Below are positions 10,911-51,278 of a stretch of 64,000 nucleotides of DNA, in pieces; position 1 is the first letter of the stretch, and the number at the start of each line of letters is the position of its first letter. The position numbers and the translations under genes were made by a program. This DNA is from Candidatus Calditenuis fumarioli. Lineage in GTDB: Archaea > Thermoproteota > Nitrososphaeria_A > Caldarchaeales > Calditenuaceae. The notes beneath the pieces are model-generated. The model saw only the letters and a list, made by a program, of their open reading frames with translations, was not told the DNA's origin and made no database searches. The stretch covers positions 160,001 to 224,000 of the forward strand of contig JANVYR010000002.1 in the NCBI GenBank assembly GCA_030059665.1, given 5' to 3'.

Positions 10911-10919
10911 GTTCCCCTC

Positions 10920-27473: not shown

Positions 27474-27776
27474 CTACGGGGACGATCGGATCGCCAGTCC
27501 TCCGGCTATCGCGGGGAGCAGCAGTATCCGGTCGTTCTCCCGGACCCTCGCCTCGAGCCCTCCCAGCTCGTTCACGTTCCGGTCGTTGAGGAAGACGTTG
27601 ACGTGCCTCCTGACCCTCCCCTGCTCGTCGAGGAGCTGCGTCCTCAGCTGGGGATACCTCTCCACGAGGGCCCTGATCGCGTCTCCCACCGTCTCCGCCT
27701 CCAGCGACACCTTGTCGGCGTTGCCCACGTAGGGCCTCAGCGGCGCTGGGATGTAGACCTCGACCTTCTGCTTCAA
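27474..27776 (-). CDS. MoaD/ThiS/SAMP-like beta-grasp protein with a 7-aa extension after GG
   Basis: V.VYIPAPLR...TVGDAIRALVERYPQL...VNVFLN...DRILLLPAIAGG followed by LAIRSSP*. Confidence 0.88.
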   Translation of the reverse strand: MKQKVEVYIPAPLRPYVGNADKVSLEAETVGDAIRALVERYPQLRTQLLDEQGRVRRHVNVFLNDRNVNELGGLEARVRENDRILLLPAIAGGLAIRSSP

Positions 27777-30879: not shown

Positions 30880-31179
30880 ATGGAGGAGCTGCTGAGGCGG
30901 ATCAAGGTCGAGATCGTGGGCAATTACAGGAACTTCGTCCCGAGCCTCGGCGTCACGACAGACGGCACGTGGGAGATCCAGATCCTGGACAAGTTCGAGA
31001 GCTTCATGGGGCCGCTCGAGTGCCCCATCGACAGGGAGGAGGTTAAGCTGGAGGAGGCCGTTCTCTGTCCCATCTGCATGACGCCCTACCACCTGGACTG
31101 CGCCAGACTGCTCGCCAGCAGGAGGGAGAAGTGCTGGAAGTGCGACAAGTTCGAGAGGTTCGATCTGCTGGTGACGTGA
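30880..31179 (+). CDS. Small RING-like zinc-finger protein (C4HC3/Prok-RING type), candidate E3
   Basis: C-x2-D-x11-C-x2-C-x4-H-x2-C-x10-C-x2-C (CPID…CPICMTPYHLDC…CWKC). Confidence 0.7.
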   Translation: MEELLRRIKVEIVGNYRNFVPSLGVTTDGTWEIQILDKFESFMGPLECPIDREEVKLEEAVLCPICMTPYHLDCARLLASRREKCWKCDKFERFDLLVT

Positions 31180-33193: not shown

Positions 33194-33230
33194 CAGGCTT
33201 TTGCCTCTTCTGAGTTCGAGGTAGGACGTT

Positions 33231-34049
33231 GTGATCATAACCGTGAACGAGCTGACCACGAGAAGGAGCGTGAAGCTAGAGGTCGAGCCGGGACACACCG
33301 TGCGTGTGGTGGTCGAGGAGGTTATGAAGGCCCTCAAGATACCGCCGACAACGACGTACCGGCTCGTGCTCGGCGGCAAGGAGATCGGCCCTGAGCTCTT
33401 CGACAAGACGCTCGGCGAGCTGGGCATCTCGGACGGCGCCATCATGGACCTGGTACCGAGGCCGGTGGGTGGAGCGATGCTGCCGCAGGACAAGCTGCTG
33501 AAGAGGCTCGAGCGGGAGGAGCAGGAGATGAGGCAGCAGGGGTACGAGTTCGTCCGGGAGGAGGTCTGGAGGCAGATGAGCTTCCCGATGGTTTACAGCG
33601 CCGGGCTCGAGACCCTCGACGTAGCGCTGAGGTACGTCGTCACCTTTCAGGCACGCGGTTTCGTGCTGACCAAGAAGGGCGTGGAGGAGCAGCTCACCCA
33701 CACCGCCAGCATCTACGTGCTCCGGTACTACCCATACCCCGATCCGAAGCACGGTGCGCCGATGAGGATCTTCTGGGAGAGCAACATCTTCCATCCGAAC
33801 ATCTGCCCCGGGCCCAGATACGGCGGAAACGGGCTCGTCTGCTGGAAGATGATCAGGGAGTGGGGGAAGAACTTCTCGCTGTCGACGCTGGTGAGGGGCC
33901 TCCAGCTTCTCGTTGAGAACCCGAACCCCGAGGACCCGCTCAGCAAGATCCCCATCTGCATGCAAGCGACCGCCTTCTTCAAGGAGAACCCGCACCTCAT
34001 GGGATCCATGCAGGCTCCTGCCGGGGGCAGGCCGCGCGTCGTCGAATAG
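33231..34049 (+). CDS. Ubiquitin-like (aa 1-81, ends GG) fused to an E2/UBC conjugating domain
   Basis: Beta-grasp pattern ending KTLGELGISDGAIMDLVPRPVGG. The E2 motifs follow: YPY..P, IFHPNI, GLVCW (C204), WG…SLSTLV and NPNPEDPL. Confidence 0.88.
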   Translation: MIITVNELTTRRSVKLEVEPGHTVRVVVEEVMKALKIPPTTTYRLVLGGKEIGPELFDKTLGELGISDGAIMDLVPRPVGGAMLPQDKLLKRLEREEQEMRQQGYEFVREEVWRQMSFPMVYSAGLETLDVALRYVVTFQARGFVLTKKGVEEQLTHTASIYVLRYYPYPDPKHGAPMRIFWESNIFHPNICPGPRYGGNGLVCWKMIREWGKNFSLSTLVRGLQLLVENPNPEDPLSKIPICMQATAFFKENPHLMGSMQAPAGGRPRVVE

Positions 34050-34059
34050 CACGCCGATC

Positions 34060-34530
34060 ATGTGCGCCGAAGAGAGGCCGGTTTACCCAGTTTACATCGA
34101 CCTAGAGGTTTTGCTGGACGTGACGAAGCACGCACTGGAGGAGCTGCCGCGTGAGGTGATTGGGTTTCTGCTGGGGAGGGCCTACACGTGGAACGGCGAG
34201 ACGTATGTCCACGTGACCGGTTCGATAAGAGGTCGGTCCATCGCCTCCGAGACCTCAGTCGCCTTCGCTCCCGATTCACTGGCCGAGGTGGCCGAGTCTC
34301 TCAGGCGAGATCATCCCGACAAGGAGATCGTCGGATGGTACCACTCGCACCCGGGATACGGATGCTTTCTGTCACCGACCGACATAACGTCGCACAAATC
34401 TTGCTTCGCGATGCCGCATCACGTCGCGCTGGTGGTGGATCCGGTGAGGAAGGAGGCAGCCTTCTTTCGCGTCTCGGAGGGATTCGGCTACGAGGGCGTG
34501 AGGTCGGCCATCGTGAGGAGGCGGGTGTGA
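34060..34530 (+). CDS. JAB/MPN+ metalloprotease, Rpn11-like
   Basis: EVIGFLLG, VGWYHSHPGYGCFLSPTD and ALVVDP. Confidence 0.92.
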   Translation: MCAEERPVYPVYIDLEVLLDVTKHALEELPREVIGFLLGRAYTWNGETYVHVTGSIRGRSIASETSVAFAPDSLAEVAESLRRDHPDKEIVGWYHSHPGYGCFLSPTDITSHKSCFAMPHHVALVVDPVRKEAAFFRVSEGFGYEGVRSAIVRRRV

Positions 34531-34531
34531 A

Positions 34532-34705
34532 ATGGTCAGGGTGTTGGACGTCACGGAGCCGCAGCCCGAGCAGAGGCCTCCCCCTGACATAACGGACGAG
34601 TACGAGGTGATATCGCGCGATGAGGAGGGAGACGGTTACGACATCTCGGAGATCGTGGACATGTTGAAAGGCATGGAAAGCGGCGAGGGGGACGCTCAGC
34701 CCTGA
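34532..34705 (+). CDS. Small acidic protein (57 aa, below the ORF-track cutoff)
   Basis: ATG 1 nt after the JAB stop; MVRVLDVTEPQPEQRPPPDITDEYEVISRDEEGDGYDISEIVDMLKGMESGEGDAQP, with 17 D/E residues. Confidence 0.6.
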   Translation: MVRVLDVTEPQPEQRPPPDITDEYEVISRDEEGDGYDISEIVDMLKGMESGEGDAQP

Positions 34706-35734: not shown

Positions 35735-35889
35735 ACTCAACGGGCCGGAGACTCCTCGCACGTCAGTTGGCCGGGCTCGGACGTCTCTAGTCCCGCTCGA
35801 TTAGCGTCCGGAATTTCTTAAATAATGGATGGCATCAATCATCAAGCCCCGTGGCAACATTTAACAGTCAGCACATTTGTGTACCATCA

Positions 35890-37704
35890 ATGGGTAAGGG
35901 CGATTCCTCCGATAAATCTAGGCGCATCGTTCCGATAAAATTCAAGCGCTGGGATGTGCCCCCGAACGTTGAGGTCTTCGACCGGTACAAGTCCGCGATG
36001 AGCGAGATCGTCATCGGCAGGGAACCCGGCTCACCGGTTCTGAAGTACTTCGTCCAGGACCCGCCGGTGAGCGAAAAGGAGCTCGAGCAGCTGGGCGAGC
36101 TGGCGGGTGAGCTGATCTACACCGCTCGCGGGCAGCAGGACTTCACCCGGGAGAAGTTCGAGGAAGTGCTGAAGAAGCGTAACTTGTACAACCCGATCCT
36201 GATGCACTACATCGAGAGGGAGCTTTGGGGATACGGCCCGCTCACCGCGGTAATGGCGGATCCTAAGATAGAGAACGTGGAGTGCAACAAGGCCGACTCA
36301 CCGGTGACCGTGACCCACACGGATTACGGGAGGATCGAGACCAACATGGCCTTCGCTGCGGACGAGCTCGACCGGCTGGTGATGCGGCTTGCCCATCTGG
36401 CGGGAAAGAGCGTGTCGGTGTTCAAGCCCTTCCTGGACGGCGTAACCATTCCCGGTGGTCACAGGTACACCTGCACCTACCGGACCGAGATATCGTCCAG
36501 CAGCACCTTCGCCATCAGGAAGTTCCCGGAGAAGCCCTGGACGATCGGAAAGCTGCTGTTGAACGAAACCATAACGCCGGAGATGGCTGCGTGGATCTGG
36601 CTGATGATCGAGACGAGGCAGGCGATACTCGTGGCAGGGGTGATGGGATCGGGCAAGACTTCGCTGATAAACGCCTTGGCCTCATTCACGCCTCCTCACA
36701 TGAAGATCGGGACCGCGGAGGACGTGCCGGAGTTCAGGCTGCCCCACACGTACTGGCTGAGGTACGTGATCAGGGAGGCGCAGACGATAGAGGGGACAGG
36801 GGCTGTGACGATCTTCGATTTGCTCAAGCTGCTCCTGAGGAGCAACGTGGACTACATCATGGTCAACGAGATCAGGGGAGAGGACGCCAAGGTCTGGATG
36901 CAGGCCGTTGCCACCGGACACGGAGGCGTCACGAGCATCCACGCGGAGGACCCGGACACGGTGTTCGCCAGGCTGGAACAGCTCGGCATACCGACCGCCC
37001 ACCTTTCGGCGCTGAGGGGAATAGCCTTCATTGGCTTCATCTTCCAGGACATCGGCAAGGGTTACTTCAAGCGGATCAGGAAGGTTAAGGAGTTCTTCGA
37101 GGTGAAGATCGACGAGTCCGGCAGGGAGGTCCGCAGGCTTTTCTGGTACGAGACAGGACCCAACGGAGGTCCCAGGTCGCTCAGCCTCGAGGAGCTGCTC
37201 GAGAGCAACTCCGCCCAGCTGATGATGCAGTACCTCGGCCTCTCGAAGGAGAGGCTGGCGGAGGAGTACAGGACGAGGGTCGACTTCCTCAGGTGGGTCG
37301 CTGGCATGTCACGGGCTAACCCGGAGGTGGCCGAGATGGATAGCATCAAGCAGCTGATGGCAAACTTCTACCTCGACAAGAACTTCTTCAGGTCGATACC
37401 GGTTCCAGCGCCGGCGAGGCCGAAGGAGCAGGAGAAGGCCGAGGTGCGGCCCGTCAAGCCTAAGGTGACCATACCGGTAGCCGTCAGGGAGGCGACGGCG
37501 AAGGAGCAGAAGGAGGGGGAGCAGAAGGAGGCGAAGGAGGTCGAGGCGAAGAGGCTCGGCGACGTGAGACTGGTGGGAATGGGCGACATGGTCCTGAGAC
37601 CGCCGCGCGTGGTGAAGAAGGGCAAGATGAAGTCTCAGGAGGAGAAAGAGAGGAAGGTGATGGGCGCACTGGCGTCCAAGCTCCGCAGGTCGGGTGAGGG
37701 GTGA
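35890..37704 (+). CDS. Type IV pilus/Tad/T2SS assembly ATPase (VirB11/TadA/ArlI family)
   Basis: Walker A GVMGSGKT, Asp box EDVPE, Walker B YIMVNEIRG, His box GHGGVTSIHA; charged C-terminal tail. An upstream GTG at 35851 is possible. Confidence 0.92.
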   Translation: MGKGDSSDKSRRIVPIKFKRWDVPPNVEVFDRYKSAMSEIVIGREPGSPVLKYFVQDPPVSEKELEQLGELAGELIYTARGQQDFTREKFEEVLKKRNLYNPILMHYIERELWGYGPLTAVMADPKIENVECNKADSPVTVTHTDYGRIETNMAFAADELDRLVMRLAHLAGKSVSVFKPFLDGVTIPGGHRYTCTYRTEISSSSTFAIRKFPEKPWTIGKLLLNETITPEMAAWIWLMIETRQAILVAGVMGSGKTSLINALASFTPPHMKIGTAEDVPEFRLPHTYWLRYVIREAQTIEGTGAVTIFDLLKLLLRSNVDYIMVNEIRGEDAKVWMQAVATGHGGVTSIHAEDPDTVFARLEQLGIPTAHLSALRGIAFIGFIFQDIGKGYFKRIRKVKEFFEVKIDESGREVRRLFWYETGPNGGPRSLSLEELLESNSAQLMMQYLGLSKERLAEEYRTRVDFLRWVAGMSRANPEVAEMDSIKQLMANFYLDKNFFRSIPVPAPARPKEQEKAEVRPVKPKVTIPVAVREATAKEQKEGEQKEAKEVEAKRLGDVRLVGMGDMVLRPPRVVKKGKMKSQEEKERKVMGALASKLRRSGEG

Positions 37705-39368
37705 TGGCGTCGATCACAGAAGCGCTGGAGCGCTCCCTGGCCAACTACATCTACCTGAGCGGGATACCCACCACGCCCCGCGATTACATCCGAAGGGTGT
37801 TCAATCTGCTCGTCGCTTCGGCCGTCGTGACCGCTGTGGTAACGTACCTCGCCCTGGCGGTGGCACGCGTTCCTGCCATGCTGATAGTGGGCGTCATGCC
37901 GTTGGCCTACTCCCTGTACCTCCTCTTCAGACCGATGGTCAAGGCCAGGTCGTTCGAGTCCCAGTGCATGCGCGAGCTGCCGTACGTTGCGGCGTTCATG
38001 ACGTCGTACGCCGCGGTCGGGATACCGCCCCACAGGTCAATGGCCTCCGTCTCCCTGAAGGAGCGGATATTCCCTGCGTTCGCGAGGCTGGTGAAGCGGA
38101 TGGAGGCGGTACGCATGATCACGGTGAAGGACCCCCTGGAGACGATAGAGGAGGAGGCGGACAAGATCAGCAGCCTGCCGCTGAAGGACTTCCTCCAGTC
38201 CGCGGTCGGAGCGGAGAGGGGAGGCGGCGGGATGTACAACGTATTGAAGGACAAGATGCGCAGCCTGTTCAACGAGCTGAAGGAGAGGTACAAGGCGCTC
38301 GGGGATCAGTTGAAGCTCTTCGGGGACCTGCTGCTGGTCTTCTTCGGCGTGCTGCCGCTGCTCCTCTACACGATGCTCACCGTCTTCGCGAGCGACATGG
38401 CCATCACGACCTCCAGGCTCTTCACGTTCATGGTGACGCCGTTGCTGGTGGTGACGCTGGCCGTGATGATAGACACCGGATATCCCTCTACGCCGCAGTC
38501 CTTTAACAGGTACTACGTCAGGGCGCTCATGCTGGGCCTTCCGATCGGCGCGGCTGTGGCCTCGGTCTTCTACCTCTCACCGGTCCTCGTTGAGACGCTG
38601 CTGGGCGCTAGGTTCGTCCAGTACAAGCTCGCCATCTCGCTGGGTGCGGGCCTGGTTGCGTTCTCGCTGGTCGCGACCTGGGTCTTTTACAGAGACTACA
38701 AGTTCATGAACGACGTGGACTACGCTCTCCCAAGCTTCGTGAGGGACCTGACCGAGGAGGTGAAGAAGGGGAAGAGCCCGACGCAGGCGACCATCTACCT
38801 CTCGGAGGTCCGAAGCTACAACAGAGCGTTCAACTTCGTCCTTCAGCAGATCGCCGCCCAGCTCAGGGTCGGGAGGAGCCTGAGGGAGGCCCTGGAGCCC
38901 TTCAGGGGGAAGGTCTCCTGGAGGTCCGAGCTGATACTGGACCTCGTGGCCGACGCGGAGGAGCTGGGAGCCCAGAAGGAGATCTTCGAGGAGGTGACCG
39001 AGATAAGCAGGGAGACGCGTGACGCGATCAGGGTCGCCAAGGCCAAGACGACCGGCATCAAGTACTTCGGGTTCATGGTGGCGCTGCTGATGATCTTCAT
39101 CGCCTCGCTACTGATCAAGCAGATCATCGTCCCGCTGGCGAACATGGCCGTAACCGTGCCCCAGAGCATCGGTCTCGGCAACATAAGGCTCCTCAGGCCC
39201 GAGCAGCTTCCGGAGCTGATCGACACCATCTCGGCCGGGATCGTCCTGAACGCGACGTTCCTCGGCGTGCTGACGGGGAAGATGAGCGACGGCATAACTG
39301 CGGCCGGGTTCCTCTACGCCTTCGTCTACACGCTGGCGGCGCTGGTGGCCATGGTGTTCCTCTTCTGA
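37704..39368 (+). CDS. TadC/ArlJ-like membrane platform protein (two T2SSF domains)
   Basis: ELPYVAAFM…GIPP and ALPSFVRDLTEEVKKGKSP T2SSF motifs, multiple TMs; overlaps the ATPase stop. Confidence 0.88.
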   Translation: MASITEALERSLANYIYLSGIPTTPRDYIRRVFNLLVASAVVTAVVTYLALAVARVPAMLIVGVMPLAYSLYLLFRPMVKARSFESQCMRELPYVAAFMTSYAAVGIPPHRSMASVSLKERIFPAFARLVKRMEAVRMITVKDPLETIEEEADKISSLPLKDFLQSAVGAERGGGGMYNVLKDKMRSLFNELKERYKALGDQLKLFGDLLLVFFGVLPLLLYTMLTVFASDMAITTSRLFTFMVTPLLVVTLAVMIDTGYPSTPQSFNRYYVRALMLGLPIGAAVASVFYLSPVLVETLLGARFVQYKLAISLGAGLVAFSLVATWVFYRDYKFMNDVDYALPSFVRDLTEEVKKGKSPTQATIYLSEVRSYNRAFNFVLQQIAAQLRVGRSLREALEPFRGKVSWRSELILDLVADAEELGAQKEIFEEVTEISRETRDAIRVAKAKTTGIKYFGFMVALLMIFIASLLIKQIIVPLANMAVTVPQSIGLGNIRLLRPEQLPELIDTISAGIVLNATFLGVLTGKMSDGITAAGFLYAFVYTLAALVAMVFLF

Positions 39369-39374
39369 GGTGGG

Positions 39375-40931
39375 ATGATGAGGCGCTCCTCTTCGGGTCA
39401 GGTCCTGATCGGCTCCGCGACCGTGATGCTCGTGATACTGCTGGTGATGGCAGCATCGCTTCCGGTGATGAACACCAGCGTCGATCCATCGAGCGAGGTG
39501 TATAACGTTATGGAAGCCATCTCCCAGACCCTCGCAAAGCACTTCTTCCGAAAATTTGGAGCCCAACAGTGCGTTTTTCAAATGGCTTACGGTAAGGCTA
39601 AACCCTCTTACATAAAGTATGATGAAACAATTGAAAACGTCCTCAAGAAAACGTTAGAAAGTTATTATAAAATGCCAATAAAAGATTTTAAGGTTGACCT
39701 TCGCTATGTAGATTTCGAAATCAAGCTTCCGAAGTACGGCGGTCCAGCCATAATTAGCGGAGAAACAGGAAAAGTTGAGCAACAACCTCTTGGTGACATC
39801 TCAGCCAGCGTTTCCATAGAGGTCAGCGTGTCCTATAAAGTCGTTAAAACCACAAGGCAAGGTCCAACGGAAGTTTTTAAGAAGTTTATTTATAGAGAAT
39901 CCTTCGGAGTAAGAACCCAGACGATAGAACCGACATTGATATATAATCATGTCAAGGAATTCGTGCAAGCGATGCCTGGATGGGTACAATTTAGCATAGG
40001 CTTTATTCCTGTTGTGGGCGACGTTGTACAAATAGAGAATGCGAGAACATATTACAAGTATTATTGGTATTTCAATGCAGGCGCCCGAAAAGAAATTGTA
40101 CAGTACGATGGTAATGGCAACGAGGTCGCTAGGGTCTCGAAGGAATGGGGTTATATGAATTATGAAATAGACCCGAAATTCAACGAAAAGCTAGTCGTTT
40201 TGTTCTTCAATAGACCAGCCTATAAGGTCCAACTAAATAAAATTCCTCTTACAATTACTTATGGTCTAGTATATGTTGAATTGACCGAATACTATAACAT
40301 AGATTGGGTAGCCGTAGTACTGGGTCTGTTGGGTCTTATCTCAGTTGGTGATCTAGCTAAAGTGATTCGTATAGTCAAGTCGGATGCCCTAGACGATGAG
40401 GGGGCCGAAGAGACACTTAAGTTCTTCAAAATTCCCGAAGGAGGATTCTGGGATTGGAAATTTTTTAAGAAGGAGGAGCCACCATGGGCCGTAAAGAAGC
40501 CTAAGGAAACACAAGCAAGTAATATGCATAATGAGGGTGCGTTTACGTTTGGAAATGCTGACCGTTTTATGACACTTTCCGAGCAGGAGGGTTCCTGGGA
40601 AAAAATAATGCGTACCGTTAGGGAGTATGCGGAGAAAAAATTGACAGATCAAGAGTTTAAGGCTGCTGCCGATGAAATTAATAAGGCTGCAAGGGATCAG
40701 TTTCTTCAAGAAGCTGAAGATATAGATGCCACAGATTACCTTTACTCGAATGAACTCGGTCAGGGCCTCTTCCAGTCAACAGGTTCTAAGTGGTGGAAGT
40801 TCTTCGATCCTAACGAACAGGACCCATTCATGTACATTATTTATCCACGCAACGGTGGCGGCGTTTACCATATGTGCGTTTGGCTTGAAGGCTTCCATCC
40901 AAGAATCGAGTACGTAGAGGAGGGACAATAA
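39375..40931 (+). CDS. Pilin-like protein with a low-GC passenger region
   Basis: MMRRSSSG|QVLIGSATVMLVILLV. Sampled 60-mers after ~39500 are 32-43% GC, versus ~65% upstream. Confidence 0.7.
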   Translation: MMRRSSSGQVLIGSATVMLVILLVMAASLPVMNTSVDPSSEVYNVMEAISQTLAKHFFRKFGAQQCVFQMAYGKAKPSYIKYDETIENVLKKTLESYYKMPIKDFKVDLRYVDFEIKLPKYGGPAIISGETGKVEQQPLGDISASVSIEVSVSYKVVKTTRQGPTEVFKKFIYRESFGVRTQTIEPTLIYNHVKEFVQAMPGWVQFSIGFIPVVGDVVQIENARTYYKYYWYFNAGARKEIVQYDGNGNEVARVSKEWGYMNYEIDPKFNEKLVVLFFNRPAYKVQLNKIPLTITYGLVYVELTEYYNIDWVAVVLGLLGLISVGDLAKVIRIVKSDALDDEGAEETLKFFKIPEGGFWDWKFFKKEEPPWAVKKPKETQASNMHNEGAFTFGNADRFMTLSEQEGSWEKIMRTVREYAEKKLTDQEFKAAADEINKAARDQFLQEAEDIDATDYLYSNELGQGLFQSTGSKWWKFFDPNEQDPFMYIIYPRNGGGVYHMCVWLEGFHPRIEYVEEGQ

Positions 40932-40987
40932 TGAGGGACAGCAATTACCCCTCTGCTCTCAGCGCCAAAACCTTAGCGAGGTCATCC

Positions 40988-41512
40988 GTGAAGAGCGTGG
41001 GACAGGCCTCCGTCACCTTCGTCGTCCTCGTGGTGCTGCTGGGACTGATAGGCACCGCCTTCTACATGGCAAACCAGTACATGGGGATCTTCGAGCCGTC
41101 GGTCTGGGACGCGGTCGAGGCGTTCAACAGGGCCGTCCAGAGGGTCTACGGTCTGCCCGAGAGGTCGGCCACCATATCGATCTACATTCCCTCCCACGCG
41201 TCGCTGAAAATATCCAGGTCGGGCTCAGGCGACGGCCTAGTCCTGGAAGCGACCGGCGCCTTCGGCGACAGGAGGTACCGGCTGATCGAGCAGGACGGAT
41301 GGGAGCTGATAAACGAGGGCTCCACCACGCTCTCCACCGACGGCCGGCTCAGGGTCGTCTACGGATCGCAGGATAGGCCCCTGAGGCTGGGCTCGGTCGA
41401 TCTCACCCTCGGCCCCGGAAGGCACACGCTCGTGATCAGGAACCTGAACGGCGTCACCGTGGCTGTCCAGCCCGTTCCCCACGGGATCCCCACGGAGGTG
41501 ATGAGCAGGTGA
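40988..41512 (+). CDS. Pilin-like protein
   Basis: GTG start: MKSVG|QASVTFVVLVVLLGLIG, a class III motif. Confidence 0.7.
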   Translation: MKSVGQASVTFVVLVVLLGLIGTAFYMANQYMGIFEPSVWDAVEAFNRAVQRVYGLPERSATISIYIPSHASLKISRSGSGDGLVLEATGAFGDRRYRLIEQDGWELINEGSTTLSTDGRLRVVYGSQDRPLRLGSVDLTLGPGRHTLVIRNLNGVTVAVQPVPHGIPTEVMSR

Positions 41513-44500
41513 GGCTGAAGGTCGCACTGCTCTTCGCGACGGTTCTCATCGCGATGCTGCTCCAGCCAGCGCACTCCCAGACGCAGCTCCCGCCAGGCGA
41601 ATCGGAGGACCTCGGCGTCTCGGTCCTTCCAGATGGGACGCTGACGGTCTGGTACGCGGCCGCCTACCCGATAGGGGCCCTCAACCGCTCCGCCACGCTG
41701 CTCGAGGAGCTGGGAATGTCAGGAGCTACAATGACGGTCTACTACGACGGCTCGCAGGGGCCGTTCACCCTCCAGCTGGAAATCTACGGCGAATCGCTCA
41801 ACGAGAAGAAATCGTCAGACCTGGCGATGACAATAGGCCGGGACCTCGGCATACCCCTCAGCCTGAACAGATCGACGGAGACCTCCCACATCTACACCGC
41901 AACGCTTTCCAGGAAGCAGCTTGAGGACCTGATATCCGAGCTCAGGCCGCTCACGAAATCCGGCGGGTTCTCCGCCAACTTGAACCTGGATTACCTCCGG
42001 AGGTTCAGGGGCTCCTACGTCGTGGTCGAGCTGGTCAGGATGGGCTGGGGGGTGTCCACGTCCTTCGAGGTCAGGGCCTTCGGGCCCACCCTCAACCAAA
42101 CCGGAGGAACGTATGTTGTGGACGTCCTCGCAGCGTTGGGGGTCAGCGAGCTCAGGCCCTCCGAGCAGGCGCTGATGAACGTGATGTTCGTGCCGCCGAT
42201 CGGATCCGACTCCGTCTCCTACTCGGTCTCACCTCCCTCTGCCAAGGTGAGGGACCTGGTGCCCGGACTGAACGTCCTGTACGTCCAGCTCAGCGGAGGC
42301 GAGGTCCTCAGGAGGTTCCAGGTGGAGTTCAGCTACAACGGCTCCTCCCTGACGGGCATAGCGGGGAAGCTCACCGACTTCATGGCCTTCGTCGAGGAAC
42401 TGGAGAGCTCCGGCTCCCTGGTGAACAGGACGTCCCACATGGTACCCACATCTGGCGGAGGACGGGGGACGGCTTCAACCGAGACCGAGAGCACCACGAC
42501 GGCCGAGACCGAGGCGCCTGCACCCGGTCAGCAGGGCGTAGAGACGCGGCAGACCACCACGACCACCAGGAACAGGGTCGGCTCCCTGCCGCCGGTCACC
42601 AGCCCGGAGAGGGGCCAGGCGATCGATCCCCTGCTGGTCCTCGGAATCGCGGTCCTCGCGGTGGCCGTAATAGCCCTCGGGACGGTCTACGTGAACCGCG
42701 GGAGCAAGCTGACGGCCAAGGGGGCTGCGACCGTAGCCCTCTCGACGCTGATGATCGCCGCCGTGGTGCTTCCGGTCCTCACGATGGACGTCGCGAACGC
42801 GCAGCAGGGTCTGGGTCAGGGAGGTCTGGAGCCGCTAGTCGAGGTGAAGCAGTTCAGGCCCGGAGGAGCCCCGCCGGACCTGGAGGTACCGCTGCTCTTC
42901 CCGGGCTTCAAGCAGATAGACAAGATCAGCAAGACCTTCATCTCCTTCGAGGAGATCAAGCTCCTCGCCACGCCCTCCCTCTATGCCCCGTACACGCCCC
43001 AGGGATTCGCGAAGCTCCTGGCAACGCTCGGCATAGATCTCAGGCTGATACAGGCCGCCGGGCTGATAGTGGGAGGAGGCCTCAACCCCCTCGGGATGTT
43101 CAAGGGGTTGACCCTGGCCCACGGAGGCACATCGGCCTTCATCGCCGGAGAGGCGGTCGGTGCCAACGTCTACCTGGTCTTCAAGGCCAAGCCCTCCTCG
43201 ACCCTCGAGTCGATGCTCGACGTCATAAACGCGGTCTACAAGATGGGCTACATCCTCTACCACTCGACGATCTGCTTCCCCGGTGACGGCTGCCTCCACC
43301 CGATAGGTCAGGCCATGATGATAACCGCAATCCTCGCGTCCGTGTACCTCGCGATAACCGCTCCGGGCTTCATGGTCTACGCCTACGCCTCCTACCCCTC
43401 GCTGGTCAACGACCTCTACGTGACGTGGGGAGCGGTGGACGGTCCAGTTGTGAGGGACAAGGAACGGGTCTGGCTGGCCGAGAACCGGTACATGGTCTCC
43501 CTTCCGATCCTGATAATGATCCTCAGGGCTCCCACTTTGTCCGGTTGGAGGGGTTCCAAGGGCCTTGCCGAGACGCCGATGACCGCGTCCTTCCACGTCT
43601 CTTCCGACGCGGACTCCGGGTGGAAGCTCACGGGGTTCCTGGGAGTCTACTCTGGGGACAGAGGCCTCAAGGTCGGCATCGACTTCAGGGACGCGATGGG
43701 GATATGGCAGCTCTTCCAGGTCATCTCGGGTGCGTTCTCCAGCACCTGGTCCAGCATGGCAGGCATCATCGCCGGGTCTCTGGGCGAGGTAGAGGCCACG
43801 CTGCAGCAGGCGGAGTCGTCGCTTTCGGCCATCGGCGCTGAGAGGAGCCCCTACCTGAGCAGTGCCCTCTCCAAGGTGCGTAACGCCATACAGCTGGTGA
43901 GGGACGCTCGGACGAAGCTGATCAGCTACAACTGCGCCGGAGCGATTTCGAACGTAGAAGGCGCGAGGGAGAACGTCGAAGGCGCCATTCAGGACCTCCA
44001 GGAAGCAGCGGCCAGCAGCCCAGCGCTCGGGCTTATGGTCCAGCCCATCATCCAGCAGTTGGAGAGGACCCTCGGTTCGCTGCAGGAGTTCGACGAGAGG
44101 ATAGCCGGCGTCTGCGCGCCCTTGAACTTCAAGGCCGACCCGCCGACTGACCCGGAGTCGCTTCCCGAGGAGCAGAAGTTGACGCTCACGTTCCTCGTGT
44201 TCACCGCAACCCCGCTCGTAACTGAGGCCGTCAACCAGAAGGGCTTCTCGGTCATCAGGCTCAGGGCCTACTACGGCTGGAACCCGTTCCCGGGGATCGT
44301 CCAGGGCGTTGCGGTCAAGGTGCGGTCCGTGTTCGAGACCGTCAGGTCGGTCGCCTACAACGAGCTCGACATGCTCTCAGAGGCCACCTCCACGATCAGC
44401 GAGGTCACCGAATCCGGGTTCAACACGGCAGCTGAGGGGTTGCTGGGCAACCTGGGGAGCTCCTTCGCTGGCGAGCTCATCGGGTCATTGAGCCAGGTTT

Positions 44501-45957
44501 TCGGTCCCCTCGTGAACATGATCAACGACGTCAAGTCGGCCCTCACCTCGCTCAAGGACAGGCTCGTCAGCTTCCTTGACAGGATAGCCGAGCAGATAAG
44601 GGCGGTCTTCGACGCCATCAAGCGCACCATCCAGCAGATCGTCGGCCAGCTCGTCTCGGCCATCACCAACCTGATCAGCTCCTTCGTCGGGTCCATCGTC
44701 AATGCCATCCTCGGCCCCCTCATAAGCGGGCTGGTGCAGCCGCTCGTCAGCCAGTTCAACTTCATCGGCCAGATGATCGGCCAGATCATCAAGGACATGA
44801 TAGAGAACTACATCAAGGAGCTGATCAACGACGTCATCCAGGACATAATCAACGAGCTGATGAAACCCATCAACCAGCTCCTTGGAGCAATAGACCAGCT
44901 GGTCGCGAAGATACTCGAACCGATCAACGCGATCAAGGAGAAGATTAACGAGTGGCGCCAGCAGATAATGGACGCGATCGACAAGTGGGCGGACCAGATT
45001 CTGGGTCCAATCTACAACGTCCTTTCGTTGGTCAAGGTGGACCTCAGCTCTCTCCCCGGATCCGGAGGTACGAGCAATCTGGGCTCCTCGGTGAAGTCCG
45101 TCATCAACGAGTTCGCTGGAGCGGCGCTGACCAAGGTCCGCAAGACCGTTGAAGAGGGGGTTAGGAAGCTGAACGAGCAGGAGAGGAAGATCCTCGGAGC
45201 CCTCGTGAGGGTCAGGGACGCGATGACCTACGCCTCGAGCATGATCAGGATACCGATCATAGGGAGAGGTGGGATGATGCAGGCCACACTGTTGGAGATC
45301 GGCGAGAGCGCTGTCTCCGACGACTACGGCTACCTGGGTGAGATAGCTGTGCCCCATGACCTCGTCAAACCCGTGGCCGGATGGTACAACGAGTTCACGC
45401 TCGTGCTGCACCCCGTCGGAGGCCTGGTGCCCTTCATGGCGGACTACAGCTACGCGGCTCCCTTCATACAGGACCTGATGGATCTGGTCGATGCGCCCCC
45501 GCCATCCGTATTGTGGGTGAAGGTCAACGAGGTCGGCCCGGTCCTCAGAGGGTCGAGCATCGACATCGCGATATTCGGTGACCCGGACAGGCCCTCTCTC
45601 CCCGGAGGCAAGGGCGTTTCGTCCACCTACTTCACGCTCCCCGACGGAACGACCGTCGAGCGTTCGATCGACGACGCACCGGTGATATCGCCGTATTTGC
45701 CCTTCCCGCCTGAAATCACGCCGCTCCTCTCGCCTTACCTCCCCTTCCCACCAGAGATCGGGCCGATGCTGTCACCTTACCTCCCGTTCCCCCCGGAGAT
45801 CACGCCGACCGCTTCTGTCGACGTTTTCACCAGACCCTACCAGGACCCCTCGGCACGAGGAGTGCCTCAGGTCCTCGTTCCCGCCGACACGGCCACAGGA
45901 ACGGTGCTTCTCTCTCCTTACCTGCCGTTCCCCCCTGAAATTACGCCCACGTCTTAG
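41509..45957 (+). CDS. 1482-aa secreted/membrane protein
   Basis: Signal peptide (AHS|Q), Thr-rich linker, TM hairpin with AxA site, amphipathic helical tract and Pro-rich C-terminal repeats. Confidence 0.8.
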   Translation: MRLKVALLFATVLIAMLLQPAHSQTQLPPGESEDLGVSVLPDGTLTVWYAAAYPIGALNRSATLLEELGMSGATMTVYYDGSQGPFTLQLEIYGESLNEKKSSDLAMTIGRDLGIPLSLNRSTETSHIYTATLSRKQLEDLISELRPLTKSGGFSANLNLDYLRRFRGSYVVVELVRMGWGVSTSFEVRAFGPTLNQTGGTYVVDVLAALGVSELRPSEQALMNVMFVPPIGSDSVSYSVSPPSAKVRDLVPGLNVLYVQLSGGEVLRRFQVEFSYNGSSLTGIAGKLTDFMAFVEELESSGSLVNRTSHMVPTSGGGRGTASTETESTTTAETEAPAPGQQGVETRQTTTTTRNRVGSLPPVTSPERGQAIDPLLVLGIAVLAVAVIALGTVYVNRGSKLTAKGAATVALSTLMIAAVVLPVLTMDVANAQQGLGQGGLEPLVEVKQFRPGGAPPDLEVPLLFPGFKQIDKISKTFISFEEIKLLATPSLYAPYTPQGFAKLLATLGIDLRLIQAAGLIVGGGLNPLGMFKGLTLAHGGTSAFIAGEAVGANVYLVFKAKPSSTLESMLDVINAVYKMGYILYHSTICFPGDGCLHPIGQAMMITAILASVYLAITAPGFMVYAYASYPSLVNDLYVTWGAVDGPVVRDKERVWLAENRYMVSLPILIMILRAPTLSGWRGSKGLAETPMTASFHVSSDADSGWKLTGFLGVYSGDRGLKVGIDFRDAMGIWQLFQVISGAFSSTWSSMAGIIAGSLGEVEATLQQAESSLSAIGAERSPYLSSALSKVRNAIQLVRDARTKLISYNCAGAISNVEGARENVEGAIQDLQEAAASSPALGLMVQPIIQQLERTLGSLQEFDERIAGVCAPLNFKADPPTDPESLPEEQKLTLTFLVFTATPLVTEAVNQKGFSVIRLRAYYGWNPFPGIVQGVAVKVRSVFETVRSVAYNELDMLSEATSTISEVTESGFNTAAEGLLGNLGSSFAGELIGSLSQVFGPLVNMINDVKSALTSLKDRLVSFLDRIAEQIRAVFDAIKRTIQQIVGQLVSAITNLISSFVGSIVNAILGPLISGLVQPLVSQFNFIGQMIGQIIKDMIENYIKELINDVIQDIINELMKPINQLLGAIDQLVAKILEPINAIKEKINEWRQQIMDAIDKWADQILGPIYNVLSLVKVDLSSLPGSGGTSNLGSSVKSVINEFAGAALTKVRKTVEEGVRKLNEQERKILGALVRVRDAMTYASSMIRIPIIGRGGMMQATLLEIGESAVSDDYGYLGEIAVPHDLVKPVAGWYNEFTLVLHPVGGLVPFMADYSYAAPFIQDLMDLVDAPPPSVLWVKVNEVGPVLRGSSIDIAIFGDPDRPSLPGGKGVSSTYFTLPDGTTVERSIDDAPVISPYLPFPPEITPLLSPYLPFPPEIGPMLSPYLPFPPEITPTASVDVFTRPYQDPSARGVPQVLVPADTATGTVLLSPYLPFPPEITPTS
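45688..45954 (+). repeat. Four copies of SPYLPFPPEI(T/G)P (three in tandem with a 14-aa period, one terminal)
   Basis: The peptide is nearly invariant while third codon positions differ between copies. Confidence 0.9.
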
Positions 45958-45971
45958 GAGGTCGCGATGGC

Positions 45972-46793
45972 TTGAGGCGTAGCGAATCCGGTCTGAGCGT
46001 GGCCGTACAGACTGCAGCGATGATAGTGATAACTGTGGCCATAGCAGGGGCCATCGTAGCCCTGTGGAGGCCATGGGAAACGGGAAGTCAGGTCCAAGCC
46101 GGAGACATATCCTACGTCATGCAGAACGTCCATGAGGCTGTCCTCAGGCGAGAGGGTTCGGTCCAGCCACATTTCTCGCTCACGGTTTACCCGCTCAAGG
46201 AGACCCACAAAGTGGAAATCGAATGGAACGGCAATAGAATGCCTGTTATGGTGTCAGTAAGCACTATAGAATATCATGGCGACAAGATGAGACTCCCAGG
46301 CGTGTACTTCCTCGACAAGGGGAGCGTCGACGTTCTCGGGACCTACATCGCGGACAGGAAAAGGAACTACACGGTCAATGGGGTGGATACGGTATCCTAT
46401 GTCGAGTACGATGAAAAGGGGATGAAATACGTCGTCAAGGCCCTGCCATACGTTAACGTGGCCGTTGACAGAGTGTACCACGACGTTGTCGTTAACGTCA
46501 TGATAAGGTTCGTGGTGCTCGCGCCCTATCCGCTGAACGCGATGGAGTTCCCAGACTCGGTTAAGCGAGGATACACCATCGGAGCGGGGCAGATGATCAC
46601 CCTCAGGATGAACAACACCTACAGGTTCTACATGCAGCAGCCCGAGTCGGTGGGCGGAGGGACCCTCAGGCTCTACTTCGATGGCGAGCCAATCCTCAAC
46701 GCGCAGAACGAGGCCCTGGAGGTCAGGACTACAGAGCACACCATAGTGAGGGTGTTCGTGGACATGGTCGTGCTGAACGTATGGGGGAGGTAG
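45972..46793 (+). CDS. Pilin-like protein
   Basis: MRRSESG|LSVAVQTAAMIVITVAIAGAIVALW. Confidence 0.7.
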   Translation: MRRSESGLSVAVQTAAMIVITVAIAGAIVALWRPWETGSQVQAGDISYVMQNVHEAVLRREGSVQPHFSLTVYPLKETHKVEIEWNGNRMPVMVSVSTIEYHGDKMRLPGVYFLDKGSVDVLGTYIADRKRNYTVNGVDTVSYVEYDEKGMKYVVKALPYVNVAVDRVYHDVVVNVMIRFVVLAPYPLNAMEFPDSVKRGYTIGAGQMITLRMNNTYRFYMQQPESVGGGTLRLYFDGEPILNAQNEALEVRTTEHTIVRVFVDMVVLNVWGR

Positions 46794-46794
46794 C

Positions 46795-50426: not shown

Positions 50427-51278
50427 GTGTCAATGTCATCCGGCACAGGTCTGAGGGGGCTCCCCGTCCTGCAGGTCTACAGGATGGACGACGACGTCTA
50501 CGAGAGGCAGCGTCGTATCTGGAACCAGGACAGAATAGGCGCGATGCGGGTCCTGGTGGGAGGTGCGGGCGCGCTCGGGAACGAGATCGTCAAGAACCTC
50601 GTTCAGATCGGGGTCAAGCGCGTTTACGTAATCGACTTCGACCGTGTGGTCGCGTCCAACCTTAACAGGTGCCTCTTCTTCCGGAGGAGCGATGCCCTCA
50701 GGAGGAGCAAAAAGGTGGAGGTGCTCGCGAGAAGGGCGAGTCAGATCAACAGCGACGTCGAGGTGGTCCCGATCCACGGCGACATCAGGGACCTGAGTGA
50801 CGACGTCATCAGGGACGTGGACATCGCGCTAGGTGCCTTCGACAACTTCCACGCAAGGCTGGTCCTGAACCTGCGGTGCTACGAGAGGCAGGTCCCCCTC
50901 ATCGACGGTGGCATCGAGGGACTGCTCGGGACGGTGCAGGTGGTGGTGCCTCCCTTCACGCCCTGCATCGAGTGCGGCATCACCGACATGGACCTCCAGC
51001 ACCTTTGGGAGAGGTTCTCGTGCGGCGGCGAGGCCACCGGGCTGGAGGGGCCGAAAATCCCGTACGTTCCGATGACGGGGGCGGTCGTCGCAGGCATTCA
51101 GGTCGCCGAGTGCGTCAAGGTCCACCTCGGGCTGGAGCGCTTCAAACGGGAGGGGAACTGGAGCGACAGCGTTGGCGAGCCCATGGCGGGCAAATCCCTG
51201 CTGATAGACCTCAGAACGGGTTCGTTCTACGCGTATGACCTCCAGCGGAGGAGCGACTGCAACGTCTGCTCTCTTTGA
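50427..51278 (+). CDS. ThiF/E1-like ubiquitin-activating enzyme (UBA3-like)
   Basis: YERQ, GAGALGNE, DFD.V..SNLNR, CIEC and C-terminal CNVC zinc motifs, and a candidate catalytic Cys in RFSC. Confidence 0.9.
   Translation: MSMSSGTGLRGLPVLQVYRMDDDVYERQRRIWNQDRIGAMRVLVGGAGALGNEIVKNLVQIGVKRVYVIDFDRVVASNLNRCLFFRRSDALRRSKKVEVLARRASQINSDVEVVPIHGDIRDLSDDVIRDVDIALGAFDNFHARLVLNLRCYERQVPLIDGGIEGLLGTVQVVVPPFTPCIECGITDMDLQHLWERFSCGGEATGLEGPKIPYVPMTGAVVAGIQVAECVKVHLGLERFKREGNWSDSVGEPMAGKSLLIDLRTGSFYAYDLQRRSDCNVCSL

What the first reader, a model, noticed from the sequence alone, without database searches (positions are those of the whole stretch)
33231..34049. Ubiquitin-like protein fused in-frame to its E2: a precursor that may be matured by the adjacent JAB
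Seen: aa 1-81 form a beta-grasp ending RPVGG (33468-33473), followed by a UBC domain. The UBC has HPNI at 188, Cys204 and NPNPEDPL, plus a 6-aa insert (CPGPRY) lengthening the usual HPN-to-Cys spacing from 10 to 16. An internal ATG (33477) follows an SD-like GGTGGA, suggesting fusion of two genes or dual initiation. Known: eukaryotic ubiquitins are made as fusions (polyUb, Ub-ribosomal protein) and released by DUBs. Inference: JAB cleavage after G81 would release Ubl and E2 in 1:1 stoichiometry and gate the whole cascade.
Basis: partly seen in the sequence, partly recalled or inferred. Interest (0 to 1): 0.92.

Follow-up and report, generated by a model that had tools for sequence, protein, structure and literature searches.

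The report
Archaeal ubiquitin-E2 fusion precursor gene
A hot-spring archaeon makes a ubiquitin-like tag and its canonical cysteine E2 enzyme as one protein joined at an invariant Gly-Gly. The protease gene next door most likely cuts it there, as shown so far only for a divergent bacterial system (Bub).

Summary
The ORF at 33231-34049 (+) encodes 272 aa: a ubiquitin-fold domain (1-81, ending RPVGG) joined in frame to a canonical UBC/E2 domain (HPN 188-190, Cys204).

It is not an assembly error:
- Contigs from three other hot-spring studies span the junction without indels.
- Fused homologues occur at 94% down to 26% identity, with GG, HPN and Cys204 invariant.

The gene belongs to a conserved module:
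- the Ubl-E2 fusion;
- an Rpn11-like JAB (34060-34530);
- a small protein with a PPP motif (34532-34705);
- a minimal ThiF-type E1 (50427-51278 here, adjacent in relatives).

A split version of the operon exists (pro-Ubl, E1, E2, JAB). The same genome also carries a canonical Caldiarchaeum-type Ub/E2/E1 operon, the Rpn11 orthologue and a SAMP-type JAMM. This locus is therefore a third, paralogous system.

Best explanation (about 0.7): the JAB cuts after G81, releasing the Ubl and the E2. A complex model puts G80-G81 in the JAMM site (ipSAE 0.70, controls 0.00), though this may reflect likeness to the solved CsRpn11-CsUb complex.

The internal-start idea is not supported, because codon 83 is Thr in congeners.

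The principle is already shown for bacterial Type I Bub (BubAB). This scan also noted divergent archaeal Ubl-E2 fusions before (Ignicoccus, Asgard). Verdict: a new variant of a known kind.

The parts
33231..34049 (+). Ubl-E2 fusion gene (272 aa), GTG start, TAG stop
   Evidence: ORF. Pfam UQ_con scores above its cut-off. Fused homologues at 62-94% identity and 26-43% identity. AF2 mean pLDDT 88.7.
33218..33222 (+). GAGGT Shine-Dalgarno-like site, 8 nt before the GTG start
   Evidence: Read from the sequence. Homologues start at the same residue.
33231..33473 (+). Ubiquitin-like beta-grasp domain, residues 1-81, ending RPVGG
   Evidence: Foldseek TM 0.82-0.88 to ubiquitin/NEDD8 and 0.74 to Caldiarchaeum Ub 6fnn_C. 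phmmer aligns RPVGG-AM with RLRGG-MQ of linear polyubiquitin.
33468..33479 (+). Junction G80-G81 | A82-M83: predicted scissile bond after G81. M83 is a likely relic of the ancestral E2 start codon.
   Evidence: GG is invariant in 14 fused sequences. Stand-alone E2 relatives start M-LP. Codon 83 is not conserved. The junction contacts the JAMM catalytic residues in the complex model.
33474..34046 (+). UBC/E2 domain, residues 82-272. HPN at 33792-33800, catalytic Cys204 at 33840-33842, and a 6-residue longer HPN-to-Cys loop. C192 is not conserved.
   Evidence: (H188, P189, N190 and C204 invariant).
34060..34530 (+). JAB/MPN+ (JAMM) metalloprotease, 156 aa, starting 10 nt after the fusion's stop: the predicted maturase and deconjugase
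   Evidence: Pfam JAB 60 bits. Best solved relative is Caldiarchaeum Rpn11-like 6fjv, E 3.9e-18. E32, H95, S96, H97, S105 and D108 are invariant. It always follows the fusion.
34532..34705 (+). Small acidic protein (57 aa) with the motif E-R-PPP-x4-D-Y-E-V-I: a conserved fourth gene of the module, function unknown
   Evidence: Homologous small ORFs follow the JAB in L004 and L006. Longer, membrane-anchored forms with the same motif occur in L019, L036 and L038.
50427..51278 (+). Minimal ThiF-type E1 (283 aa) with a conserved crossover-loop Cys, two CxxC pairs and no ubiquitin-fold domain: the predicted cognate E1
   Evidence: Pfam ThiF 157 bits. Its orthologue sits near the fusion in L004 (65% identity, one 138-aa gene between them). 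It is also in the module in L019, L035 and L036. Alignment.
30880..31179 (+). RING-like zinc-finger protein (99 aa): a possible E3, with weak linkage to the module
   Evidence: Prok-RING_1 scores 25 bits, below the 29.1 cut-off. It is near the module only in this genus. No Pfam RING-family hit was recorded for the genes listed on the three distant fused-form loci L035, L036 and L038.

Best explanation
The gene encodes a precursor of a self-contained ubiquitin-like conjugation module, paralogous to the archaeon's canonical ubiquitin operon.

Proposed sequence of events:
1. The 272-aa protein is made as Ubl-GG-E2.
2. The JAMM/MPN+ protease encoded 10 nt downstream binds the Ubl domain and cuts the peptide bond after G81.
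3. This frees a Ubl with a C-terminal Gly-Gly and an E2 starting at about A82.
4. The small ThiF-type E1 (50427-51278) adenylates the freed glycine, probably passing it to its conserved crossover-loop cysteine.
5. The Ubl then moves as a thioester to Cys204 of the released E2 and on to target lysines.
6. The same JAB probably also removes the tag from targets.

Shown here: the fusion, its folds, its catalytic motifs, its conservation and the gene linkage.
Inferred: cleavage, the choice of E1, the thioester chemistry and the targets.
For: 1. The fusion is real and under selection.
- Independent contigs span the junction without indels, and the strain differences inside the ORF are synonymous.
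- Fused homologues run from 94% to 26% identity with G80, G81, HPN and C204 invariant.

2. No separate Ubl gene was called in the fused-form loci examined. The fused domain therefore looks like the module's only modifier, and an E1 needs a free C-terminal carboxylate (established E1 chemistry).

3. A split orthologous operon exists: pro-Ubl with GG plus a 16-aa tail, then E1, E2 and JAB.
- Its E1, E2 and JAB each match the window's module proteins better than they match the canonical ones.
- Stand-alone Ubl relatives mostly carry 1-14 residue tails after GG.

4. On the E2-domain tree, fused and split forms are interleaved, with at least 6 changes forced by well-supported branches. This suggests the two forms are functionally interchangeable.

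5. The JAB has the complete E...HxH...S...D motif. Its closest solved relative is CsRpn11.

6. The complex model scores ipSAE 0.70 against a best control of 0.00.
- That mark was reached by 58 of 80 solved complexes and 2 of 110 mismatched pairs.
- The runs agree in at least 78% of contacts and the partner pLDDT is at least 81.
- Residues 75-83 lie against JAB residues 32, 95, 97, 105 and 108.
- The pass may come from likeness to the solved CsRpn11-CsUb complex.

7. Precedent exists.
- CsRpn11 cuts Ub-pre and linear Ub-GFP, Ub-DHFR and Ub-lactalbumin fusions after GG (PMC5654768, PMC6043591).
- BubCD cuts the BubAB Ubl-E2 fusion after a conserved Gly (PMC11601596).

8. The genome holds three E1s and three JAMMs: a SAMP-type set, the canonical Ub set and this module. 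That fits one protease per modifier.
Against: - No biochemical or proteomic evidence of cleavage exists for this family.
- In this genome the E1 is 16 kb from the fusion, so its assignment rests on relatives.
- The E1 lacks the ubiquitin-fold domain that canonical E1s use to recruit an E2, so the transfer step is unexplained.
- The Ubl domain's Pfam scores are below the gathering cut-offs.
- The interdomain arrangement in the monomer model is uncertain (pTM 0.69).
- Some 'split' relatives on short metagenome contigs could be truncated gene calls, which would inflate the fusion/fission count.
Confidence: 0.7

Rival explanations
1. The Ubl domain is never released. It acts in cis as a regulatory or docking domain of the E2, for example recruiting the UFD-less E1 or occupying the E2 backside. 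The modifier actually transferred would be another protein, such as the canonical Ub or the ThiS-like protein at 27474-27776.
For: - The E1 of the module lacks a ubiquitin-fold domain, so a cis Ubl could serve as a docking element.
- Other Ubl genes exist in the genome.
- Permanent UBL domains are common in eukaryotic enzymes (general knowledge).
Against: - The Gly-Gly at the junction is invariant down to 26% identity, while the surrounding linker varies.
- Split forms of the same module encode the Ubl as a separate pro-protein.
- Fused and split forms interleave on the tree.
- Distant modules carry no other Ubl.
- The canonical Ub has its own E2 and E1.
Confidence: 0.12
2. The precursor is cleaved at GG, but not by the adjacent JAB. 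The cutter would be the genome's Rpn11 orthologue (C1:29766-30092), the SAMP-type JAMM, or another protease. The adjacent JAB would act only as a deconjugase.
For: - Two other JAMM proteases are present.
- The Rpn11 orthologue has no precursor to process, because the canonical Ub gene ends exactly at GG-stop.
Against: - A JAB gene is invariably the next gene after the fusion, often overlapping it or within 10 nt.
- CsRpn11 and CsJAMM are each strictly specific for their own modifier (PMC6043591).
- The complex model with the adjacent JAB passes its controls.
Confidence: 0.08
3. Dual initiation: in this organism the E2 is also, or mainly, made separately from the internal ATG at 33477, so that free E2 exists without proteolysis.
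For: - ATG 33477 is in frame and corresponds to the start of stand-alone E2 relatives (M-LP...).
- A purine-rich GGTGGA precedes it.
Against: - GGTGGA is the Gly-Gly codon pair and varies synonymously in relatives.
- It ends only 3 nt before the ATG.
- Codon 83 is ACC in two species of the same genus, is missing in L038 and is Phe in L035.
- Even if the internal start were used, the Ubl would still need releasing.
Confidence: 0.05
4. Assembly or sequencing artefact: two adjacent genes (Ubl and E2) joined by a lost stop codon or a frameshift.
For: In the canonical operon of related genera, Ub and E2 lie in the same frame separated by a single stop codon, so a single error could mimic a fusion.
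Against: - Contigs from three other studies span the junction with 0 gaps and no change at the junction.
- An RNA-library contig also bridges it.
- Five species of the genus and at least 10 distant clusters have the same architecture.
Confidence: 0.01

Closest known systems
Type I Bub (6E.1) operons of bacteria: BubAB (Ubl-E2 fusion), BubCD (JAB-E1 fusion), BubE (Ye, Gong, Chambers, Corbett 2024, PMC11601596)
   Same: The modifier is encoded as an N-terminal fusion to its E2. An operon-encoded JAB/JAMM cuts after a conserved Gly to expose the reactive C-terminus; this is shown experimentally for BubAB. The E1 is small and dimer-type, without a ubiquitin-fold domain.
   Different: - Here the E2 is a canonical UBC with HPN and a catalytic Cys. 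The Bub E2 uses Ser/His oxyester chemistry and lacks the Cys.
- JAB and E1 are separate genes here.
- No DUF6527/BubE was found in the genome.
- The Ubl is a single ubiquitin-like beta-grasp.
- The host is an archaeon.
- No PADLOC defence model matches the fusion.
Caldiarchaeum subterraneum eukaryote-like ubiquitin system (Ub-pre, E1, E2, srfp RING, CsRpn11; PMC3082918, PMC5654768, PMC6043591)
   Same: - Same order of archaea.
- Ubiquitin-fold modifier made as a precursor.
- An Rpn11-like JAMM cuts after GG and also cuts linear Ub-protein fusions.
- Canonical HPN/Cys E2.
   Different: - In Caldiarchaeum the pro-peptide is 9 residues, not a whole E2.
- Its E1 is about 400 aa, with an inserted Cys domain and a C-terminal ubiquitin-fold domain.
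- This genome has that canonical system as well, on another contig.
- The fusion's E2 shows about 31% identity over a roughly 98-residue local match to the canonical E2.
- Its JAB is a paralogue of the Rpn11 orthologue: 69 against 148 bits to 6fjv.
Eukaryotic ubiquitin fusion precursors (polyubiquitin, Ub-eL40, Ub-eS31)
   Same: Ubiquitin is translated as a head-to-tail fusion ending RxxGG, followed directly by another folded protein, and is released by a deubiquitinase. The junction RPVGG-AM aligns with RLRGG-MQ of linear polyubiquitin.
   Different: The passenger here is the pathway's own E2, not a ribosomal protein or another ubiquitin. The processing enzyme is predicted to be a JAMM metalloprotease rather than a Cys DUB.
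Type I/II BilABCD operons (bacterial ISG15-like; 10.1101/2023.09.26.559546)
   Same: A four-part set of Ubl, E2, JAB and E1. The JAB (BilC) pre-processes the Ubl to expose its glycine.
   Different: Bil components are separate proteins. BilD is a large eukaryote-like E1. The only PADLOC match here is a weak BilD hit of the ThiF domain (E 2e-4).

Membership tests
UBC / E2 ubiquitin-conjugating enzymes (Pfam PF00179) | Profile match above the curated cut-off | tested here: met
   30.4 bits against a cut-off of 27, residues 158-239; 31.3 bits in the genome scan.
UBC / E2 ubiquitin-conjugating enzymes (Pfam PF00179) | HPN motif followed by the catalytic Cys | tested here: met
   H188, P189, N190 and C204 are invariant in 14 fused sequences. 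The spacing is 16 rather than 10.
UBC / E2 ubiquitin-conjugating enzymes (Pfam PF00179) | UBC alpha/beta fold | tested here: met
   AF2 model: helix 86-102, four-stranded sheet, helices 217-229 and 241-252. Foldseek TM 0.61-0.64 to UbcH5A/B/C.
UBC / E2 ubiquitin-conjugating enzymes (Pfam PF00179) | Forms an E1-dependent thioester with its Ubl | not testable with these tools
   Needs biochemistry.
Ubiquitin family beta-grasp modifiers | Beta-grasp fold close to ubiquitin | tested here: met
   TM 0.82-0.88, rmsd 1.6-2.3 A and about 31% identity to ubiquitin/NEDD8.
Ubiquitin family beta-grasp modifiers | Pfam ubiquitin / Rad60-SLD match above the cut-off | tested here: not met
   21.2 bits (cut-off 25.4) and 23.0 bits (cut-off 23.8). 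By sequence score it is ubiquitin-like, not ubiquitin.
Ubiquitin family beta-grasp modifiers | Gly-Gly at the end of the fold that becomes the reactive C-terminus | tested here: inconclusive
   The GG is present and invariant, but internal. Its exposure by cleavage is inferred.
JAMM/MPN+ metalloproteases (adjacent gene) | E...HxH...S...D metal-binding and catalytic motif | tested here: met
   E32, H95, H97, S105 and D108 are invariant in 8 module JABs. Pfam JAB scores 60 bits.
Type I Bub (6E.1) | Ubl fused N-terminally to the E2 | tested here: met
Type I Bub (6E.1) | E2 with catalytic Ser plus His/Asp, no Cys (oxyester chemistry) | tested here: not met
   Invariant HPN and Cys204; classical UQ_con match.
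Type I Bub (6E.1) | JAB fused to E1 (BubCD) and a DUF6527 protease (BubE) in the operon | tested here: not met
   JAB and ThiF are separate genes. There is no PF20137 match in the 91%-complete genome.
Caldiarchaeum-type Ub operon | Separate Ub gene; about 400-aa E1 with Cys insertion and C-terminal ubiquitin-fold domain | tested here: not met
   The modifier is fused. The module E1 is 283 aa, without either the insertion or the UFD. The canonical operon lies elsewhere, at C1:98568-100192.
Caldiarchaeum-type Ub operon | Associated RING E3 (srfp) | tested here: inconclusive
   A RING-like gene lies 2 kb upstream but scores below the Prok-RING_1 cut-off. It is linked only within this genus.

The most novel reading that the evidence does not exclude
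This is an undescribed third kind of archaeal ubiquitin-like conjugation system with four parts:
- a Ubl-GG-E2 precursor built on a canonical eukaryote-type Cys E2;
- a dedicated Rpn11-like JAMM maturase;
- a minimal UFD-less E1;
- a conserved PPP-motif, often membrane-anchored, partner that may be the target or anchor.

It coexists with the canonical Ub and SAMP systems. Its E2 is related to a stand-alone E2 family of Asgard archaea. If so, making ubiquitin as a cleavable fusion to a functional passenger would predate eukaryotes within the canonical E2 lineage.
Probability: 0.5. Interest if true: 0.7.

Novelty: new variant of a known kind. Interest (0 to 1): 0.55.

Why it matters
Eukaryotes make all their ubiquitin as fusion precursors. 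The archaeal systems regarded as forerunners were known only with short pro-peptides.

Here a canonical HPN/Cys E2 is itself the 'pro-peptide' of a ubiquitin-like tag, in the same archaeal order (Caldarchaeales) in which the eukaryote-like cascade was first reconstituted. A complete second system sits beside it for comparison.

This offers:
- a compact, thermostable model of three or four proteins for asking how precursor processing gates a conjugation cascade;
- a way to study how a UFD-less E1 hands a Ubl to a classical E2;
- a way to study how three parallel Ubl systems keep their specificity in one cell.

It also shows that the Ubl-E2 precursor design proven for the oxyester-based bacterial Bub system recurs, several times independently, with thioester-type E2s.

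Tried and rejected
- Assembly error: rejected.
- Internal start at M83 as a conserved feature: rejected.
- C192 as the catalytic residue: rejected. It is V, A, R, H or another non-Cys residue in homologues, while C204 is invariant.
- Membership in known defence systems: no PADLOC or NCBIfam model matches the fusion. The JAB and ThiF give only generic hits.
- Bub membership: rejected on three defining features.
- Taxonomy of the distant fused forms: the search for related loci with the wide alignments A2 and A6 failed because there was no conserved stretch to search with. With A1 it returned only the Calditenuaceae/Caldarchaeales fusions plus stand-alone Asgard, Bathyarchaeota and other E2s. 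The taxonomy therefore stays unknown.
- Phylum-wide genome search: 401 genomes showed uninterrupted fusions only in this genus. This was a sample, so absence elsewhere is not shown.
- Literature: searches for an archaeal Ub-E2 fusion found none. The library is incomplete; for example, Burroughs et al. 2011 on prokaryotic RINGs could not be read.
- RNA evidence: the metatranscriptome run gave only one 198-nt contig across the junction. This is too little to claim expression or a transcript structure.
- Functional link to the neighbouring type-IV-pilus-like cluster: considered because of the adjacency. Left open, because the distant modules L035 and L036 lack it.
Full report
OBSERVATION

The ORF 33231..34049 (+) is real: 272 aa with a GTG start. 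A GAGGT site lies 8 nt upstream. Residues 77-81 are RPVGG; the Gly codons GGT GGA are at 33468-33473, followed by A82 and M83 (ATG at 33477). The second half carries HPN (188-190), Cys204 (TGC at 33840-33842) and NPNPEDPL.

The H-to-C spacing is 16. It is 10 in UbcH5-type E2s (my knowledge) and 12 in this genome's own canonical E2.

FOLDS

- Pfam gives UQ_con above its cut-off (30.4 against 27 bits, residues 158-239). The ubiquitin and Rad60-SLD matches over residues 9-75 fall just below theirs.
- An AlphaFold2 model built on a 41-row alignment has mean pLDDT 88.7. It shows a beta-grasp (1-77), a short linker (78-85) and a UBC fold (86-252). The last 11 residues are disordered.
- Foldseek matches the first domain to ubiquitin/NEDD8 (TM 0.82-0.88, rmsd 1.6-2.3 A, about 31% identity) and to Caldiarchaeum ubiquitin. 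It matches the second domain to UbcH5 enzymes (TM 0.61-0.64).
- phmmer against PDB sequences aligns RPVGG-AM with the RLRGG-MQ joint of linear polyubiquitin.

NOT AN ARTEFACT

- The stretch is held by hot-spring metagenomes of 10 studies.
- Contigs from three studies other than the likely source span the junction with no gaps and no change at the joint. One 198-nt contig of an RNA library bridges it too.
- The four strain differences inside the ORF (33452, 33893, 33899, 33968) are all third-position synonymous changes by my reading of the codons.
- Five species of the genus carry the uninterrupted frame at 78-79% identity. Record titles place them in Calditenuaceae/Caldarchaeales, the former Aigarchaeota.
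- Metagenome clusters extend the fused form to 62-65% identity in low-GC relatives.
- An exhaustive representative search extends it to at least ten further clusters at 26-43% identity.
- Across 14 fused sequences, the invariant columns include G80, G81, H188, P189, N190 and C204.

THE MODULE

A JAB/MPN+ gene follows the fusion in every fused-form locus examined: this window, L004, L006, L035, L036 and L038. It is often overlapping or within about 10 nt. Its E...HSH...S...D motif is invariant.

A small ThiF-type E1 of 264-301 aa belongs to the set:
- next to the fusion, or separated from it by one gene (the JAB or a 138-aa protein), in L004, L035 and L036;
- 16 kb away here, at 50427-51278, as part of a local rearrangement of otherwise syntenic blocks.

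The module E1s share two CxxC pairs and a conserved Cys in a short crossover loop. They lack both the Cys-domain insertion and the C-terminal ubiquitin-fold domain of the canonical archaeal E1.

A fourth gene follows the JAB. Here it is a 57-aa acidic protein (34532-34705). In distant modules it is a longer, single-pass membrane protein. All share an E-R-x-PPP-x4-[DE]-[YFH]-E-[VL] motif.

A SPLIT VERSION EXISTS

Locus L019 encodes a 99-aa pro-Ubl (GG plus a 16-residue tail), a 301-aa ThiF, a 213-aa E2 and a 163-aa JAB, packed tightly together. Each matches the window's module proteins better than it matches the canonical ones:
- E1: 188 against 104 bits.
- E2: 97 against 33 bits.
- JAB: 41% identity.

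Stand-alone Ubl relatives mostly carry tails of 1-14 residues after GG. Stand-alone E2 relatives begin M-LP..., exactly matching A82-M83-L84-P85. M83 therefore looks like the relic of the E2 start codon.

On a maximum-likelihood tree of the E2 domain (50 rows; six near-identical or fragmentary rows left out), fused and split forms interleave. Well-supported branches force at least six changes of state. The two layouts therefore appear interchangeable, which is what one expects if the fusion is cut into the same two products. Caveat: some 'split' calls on short contigs may be truncated.

THREE PARALLEL SYSTEMS IN ONE GENOME

Contig C1 carries a canonical Caldiarchaeum-type operon:
- a 78-aa Ub ending TVGG-stop;
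- a 167-aa E2;
- a 394-aa E1 with a ubiquitin-fold domain.

The true CsRpn11 orthologue lies elsewhere: 148 bits to 6fju, against 69 bits (to 6fjv) for the window's JAB. A Prok-JAB-type JAMM and a third ThiF complete a probable SAMP set. That makes three E1s and three JAMMs for three modifiers. The window's JAB is thus a paralogue dedicated to this module.

MECHANISM

An E1 can only adenylate a free C-terminal carboxylate, so the fused Ubl must be released to act.

The literature shows that close relatives of this protease do exactly this:
- CsRpn11 cuts its pro-ubiquitin after GG, and also cuts linear Ub-sfGFP, Ub-DHFR and Ub-lactalbumin fusions (PMC5654768, PMC6043591).
- In bacterial Type I Bub operons, the JAB domain of BubCD cuts the BubAB Ubl-E2 pre-protein after a conserved Gly (PMC11601596).

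A complex prediction of the JAB with the whole precursor supports binding:
- ipSAE is 0.70, with a best control of 0.00. That mark was reached by 58 of 80 solved complexes and 2 of 110 mismatched pairs.
- The runs agree in at least 78% of contacts, and the partner pLDDT is at least 81.
- The interface is the Ubl surface plus residues 75-83. These lie against JAB residues E32, H95, H97, S105 and D108.
- Only two residues of the E2 domain touch the JAB.
- Because a like complex (CsRpn11-CsUb) is solved, the pass may reflect that likeness rather than show binding.

I therefore put about 0.7 on JAB cleavage after G81. Activation by the 283-aa ThiF and a thioester on C204 would follow. The 1:1 stoichiometry and 'gating' rationale is reasonable but untested. 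Gating by JAB processing is in any case a family trait, since most split forms also have tails.

WHAT IS NOT SUPPORTED

Dual initiation is not supported:
- The 'SD-like' GGTGGA is the Gly-Gly codon pair. It varies synonymously among relatives (GGA GGG, GGC GGA, GGC GGC).
- It ends 3 nt before the ATG.
- Codon 83 is ACC in two species of the same genus.

C192 is not conserved.

The RING-like gene at 30880-31179 scores below the Prok-RING_1 cut-off and is linked to the module only within this genus. Two better RING-H2 genes lie elsewhere in the genome.

COMPARISON AND NOVELTY

The design 'Ubl-E2 pre-protein cut by the operon's JAB' is established for Type I Bub. This locus fails three Bub-defining features:
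- a Ser/His E2;
- a JAB-E1 fusion;
- DUF6527.

It is instead built from a classical thioester-type UBC, an Rpn11-like JAMM and a minimal E1, in an archaeon. It is also not the Caldiarchaeum operon, which the genome has separately.

I found no paper describing an archaeal Ub-E2 fusion in the searchable library. Earlier notes of this scan report Ubl-E2 fusions with strongly diverged E2-like domains in Ignicoccus and an Asgard archaeon. I could not compare sequences with those.

The nearest non-fused relatives of the E2 domain among species genomes are stand-alone E2s of Asgard (Promethearchaeota) and a few other archaea.

Verdict: a real, conserved feature and a new variant of a known kind. Interest is moderate to fairly high for the ubiquitin-evolution field.

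LIMITS

- No biochemistry was done.
- The taxonomy of the distant fused clusters is unknown.
- The targets and biological role are unknown. The recurrent neighbourhood of a type-IV-pilus-like cluster in Caldarchaeales relatives may be mere synteny.

Noticed in passing
window 34532-34705 (+); L004 11302-11457; L006 2229-2396; L019 2547-3335; L036 7869-8282; L038 6650-7042: The gene after the JAB is a conserved fourth component. It has an N-terminal motif E-[ER]-x-PPP-x3-4-[DE]-[YFH]-[EI]-[LVI]. In this genus it is a short acidic soluble protein. In distant modules it is a single-pass membrane protein with a Thr-rich tail. It is a candidate target, adaptor or anchor.
   Followed up: partly
G000 contig C1:98568-100192 (L011 1456-2200; L013 544-1728): A canonical Caldiarchaeum-type operon sits in the same genome. 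Its Ub is 78 aa and ends TVGG directly at the stop codon, with no pro-peptide, followed by a 167-aa E2 and a 394-aa E1. The Rpn11 orthologue lies about 69 kb upstream on the same contig (C1:29766-30092), and the RING-H2 genes are dispersed (C1:264656, C1:817885).
   Followed up: partly
L020 (G069:C13), L022 (G063:C17), L087 (G308:C9): In some related genera the canonical Ub and E2 genes lie in the same reading frame, separated by only one or two stop codons. Losing that stop codon would leave a single Ub-linker-E2 reading frame, which shows how easily such fusions can arise.
   Followed up: partly
L035 (JGI 3300035199 contig, 7304-11114 and flanks): A distant fused module (Ubl-E2, JAB, ThiF) sits beside YqaJ-like, serine-recombinase and integrase genes, suggesting a mobile element or virus. 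Its JAB is 291 aa, with a roughly 130-residue N-terminal extension and a CxxC-containing insert before the HSH motif.
   Followed up: no
L056-L082 (Promethearchaeota, Hermodarchaeota, Thorarchaeota, Sigynarchaeum, Bathyarchaeota MAGs): The closest stand-alone relatives of the E2 domain among species genomes form an Asgard-rich E2 family of about 170-195 aa. They have an even longer HPN-to-Cys loop and an acidic tail ending DDIIIIDD or similar.
   Followed up: no
window 35851-47271; L004 18221-20822; L006 4037-11543; L038 1-3712: A type-IV-pilus/archaellum-like cluster lies next to the Ubl-E2/JAB pair in several Caldarchaeales-like relatives. It includes a T2SSE ATPase, a TadC-like membrane protein, pilin-like DUF7288 proteins and a giant protein of about 1450 aa. 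It is absent from the most distant modules.
   Followed up: partly
window 27474-27776 (-): A ThiS/MoaD-family protein (Pfam ThiS 51 bits) has its Gly-Gly followed by a 7-residue tail (LAIRSSP). It is probably a SAMP-type precursor for the genome's Prok-JAB-type JAMM (C1:258819-259178), not for the JAB of this locus.
   Followed up: no
window 49739-50425 and 53692-54102 (+): Two proteins without any Pfam match (228 aa and 137 aa) flank the ThiF E1 here. Their orthologues sit between the E1 and the fusion in L004 (54% and 80% identity). They are possible further module components.
   Followed up: no
L019 (G022:C91) and L006: The split operon lies in a bin labelled as the same genus but has 41% G+C, against 62% for the window. 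A 65%-identical fusion lies on a 38% G+C contig. Either the bin is mixed, or the module spans lineages of very different base composition.
   Followed up: no
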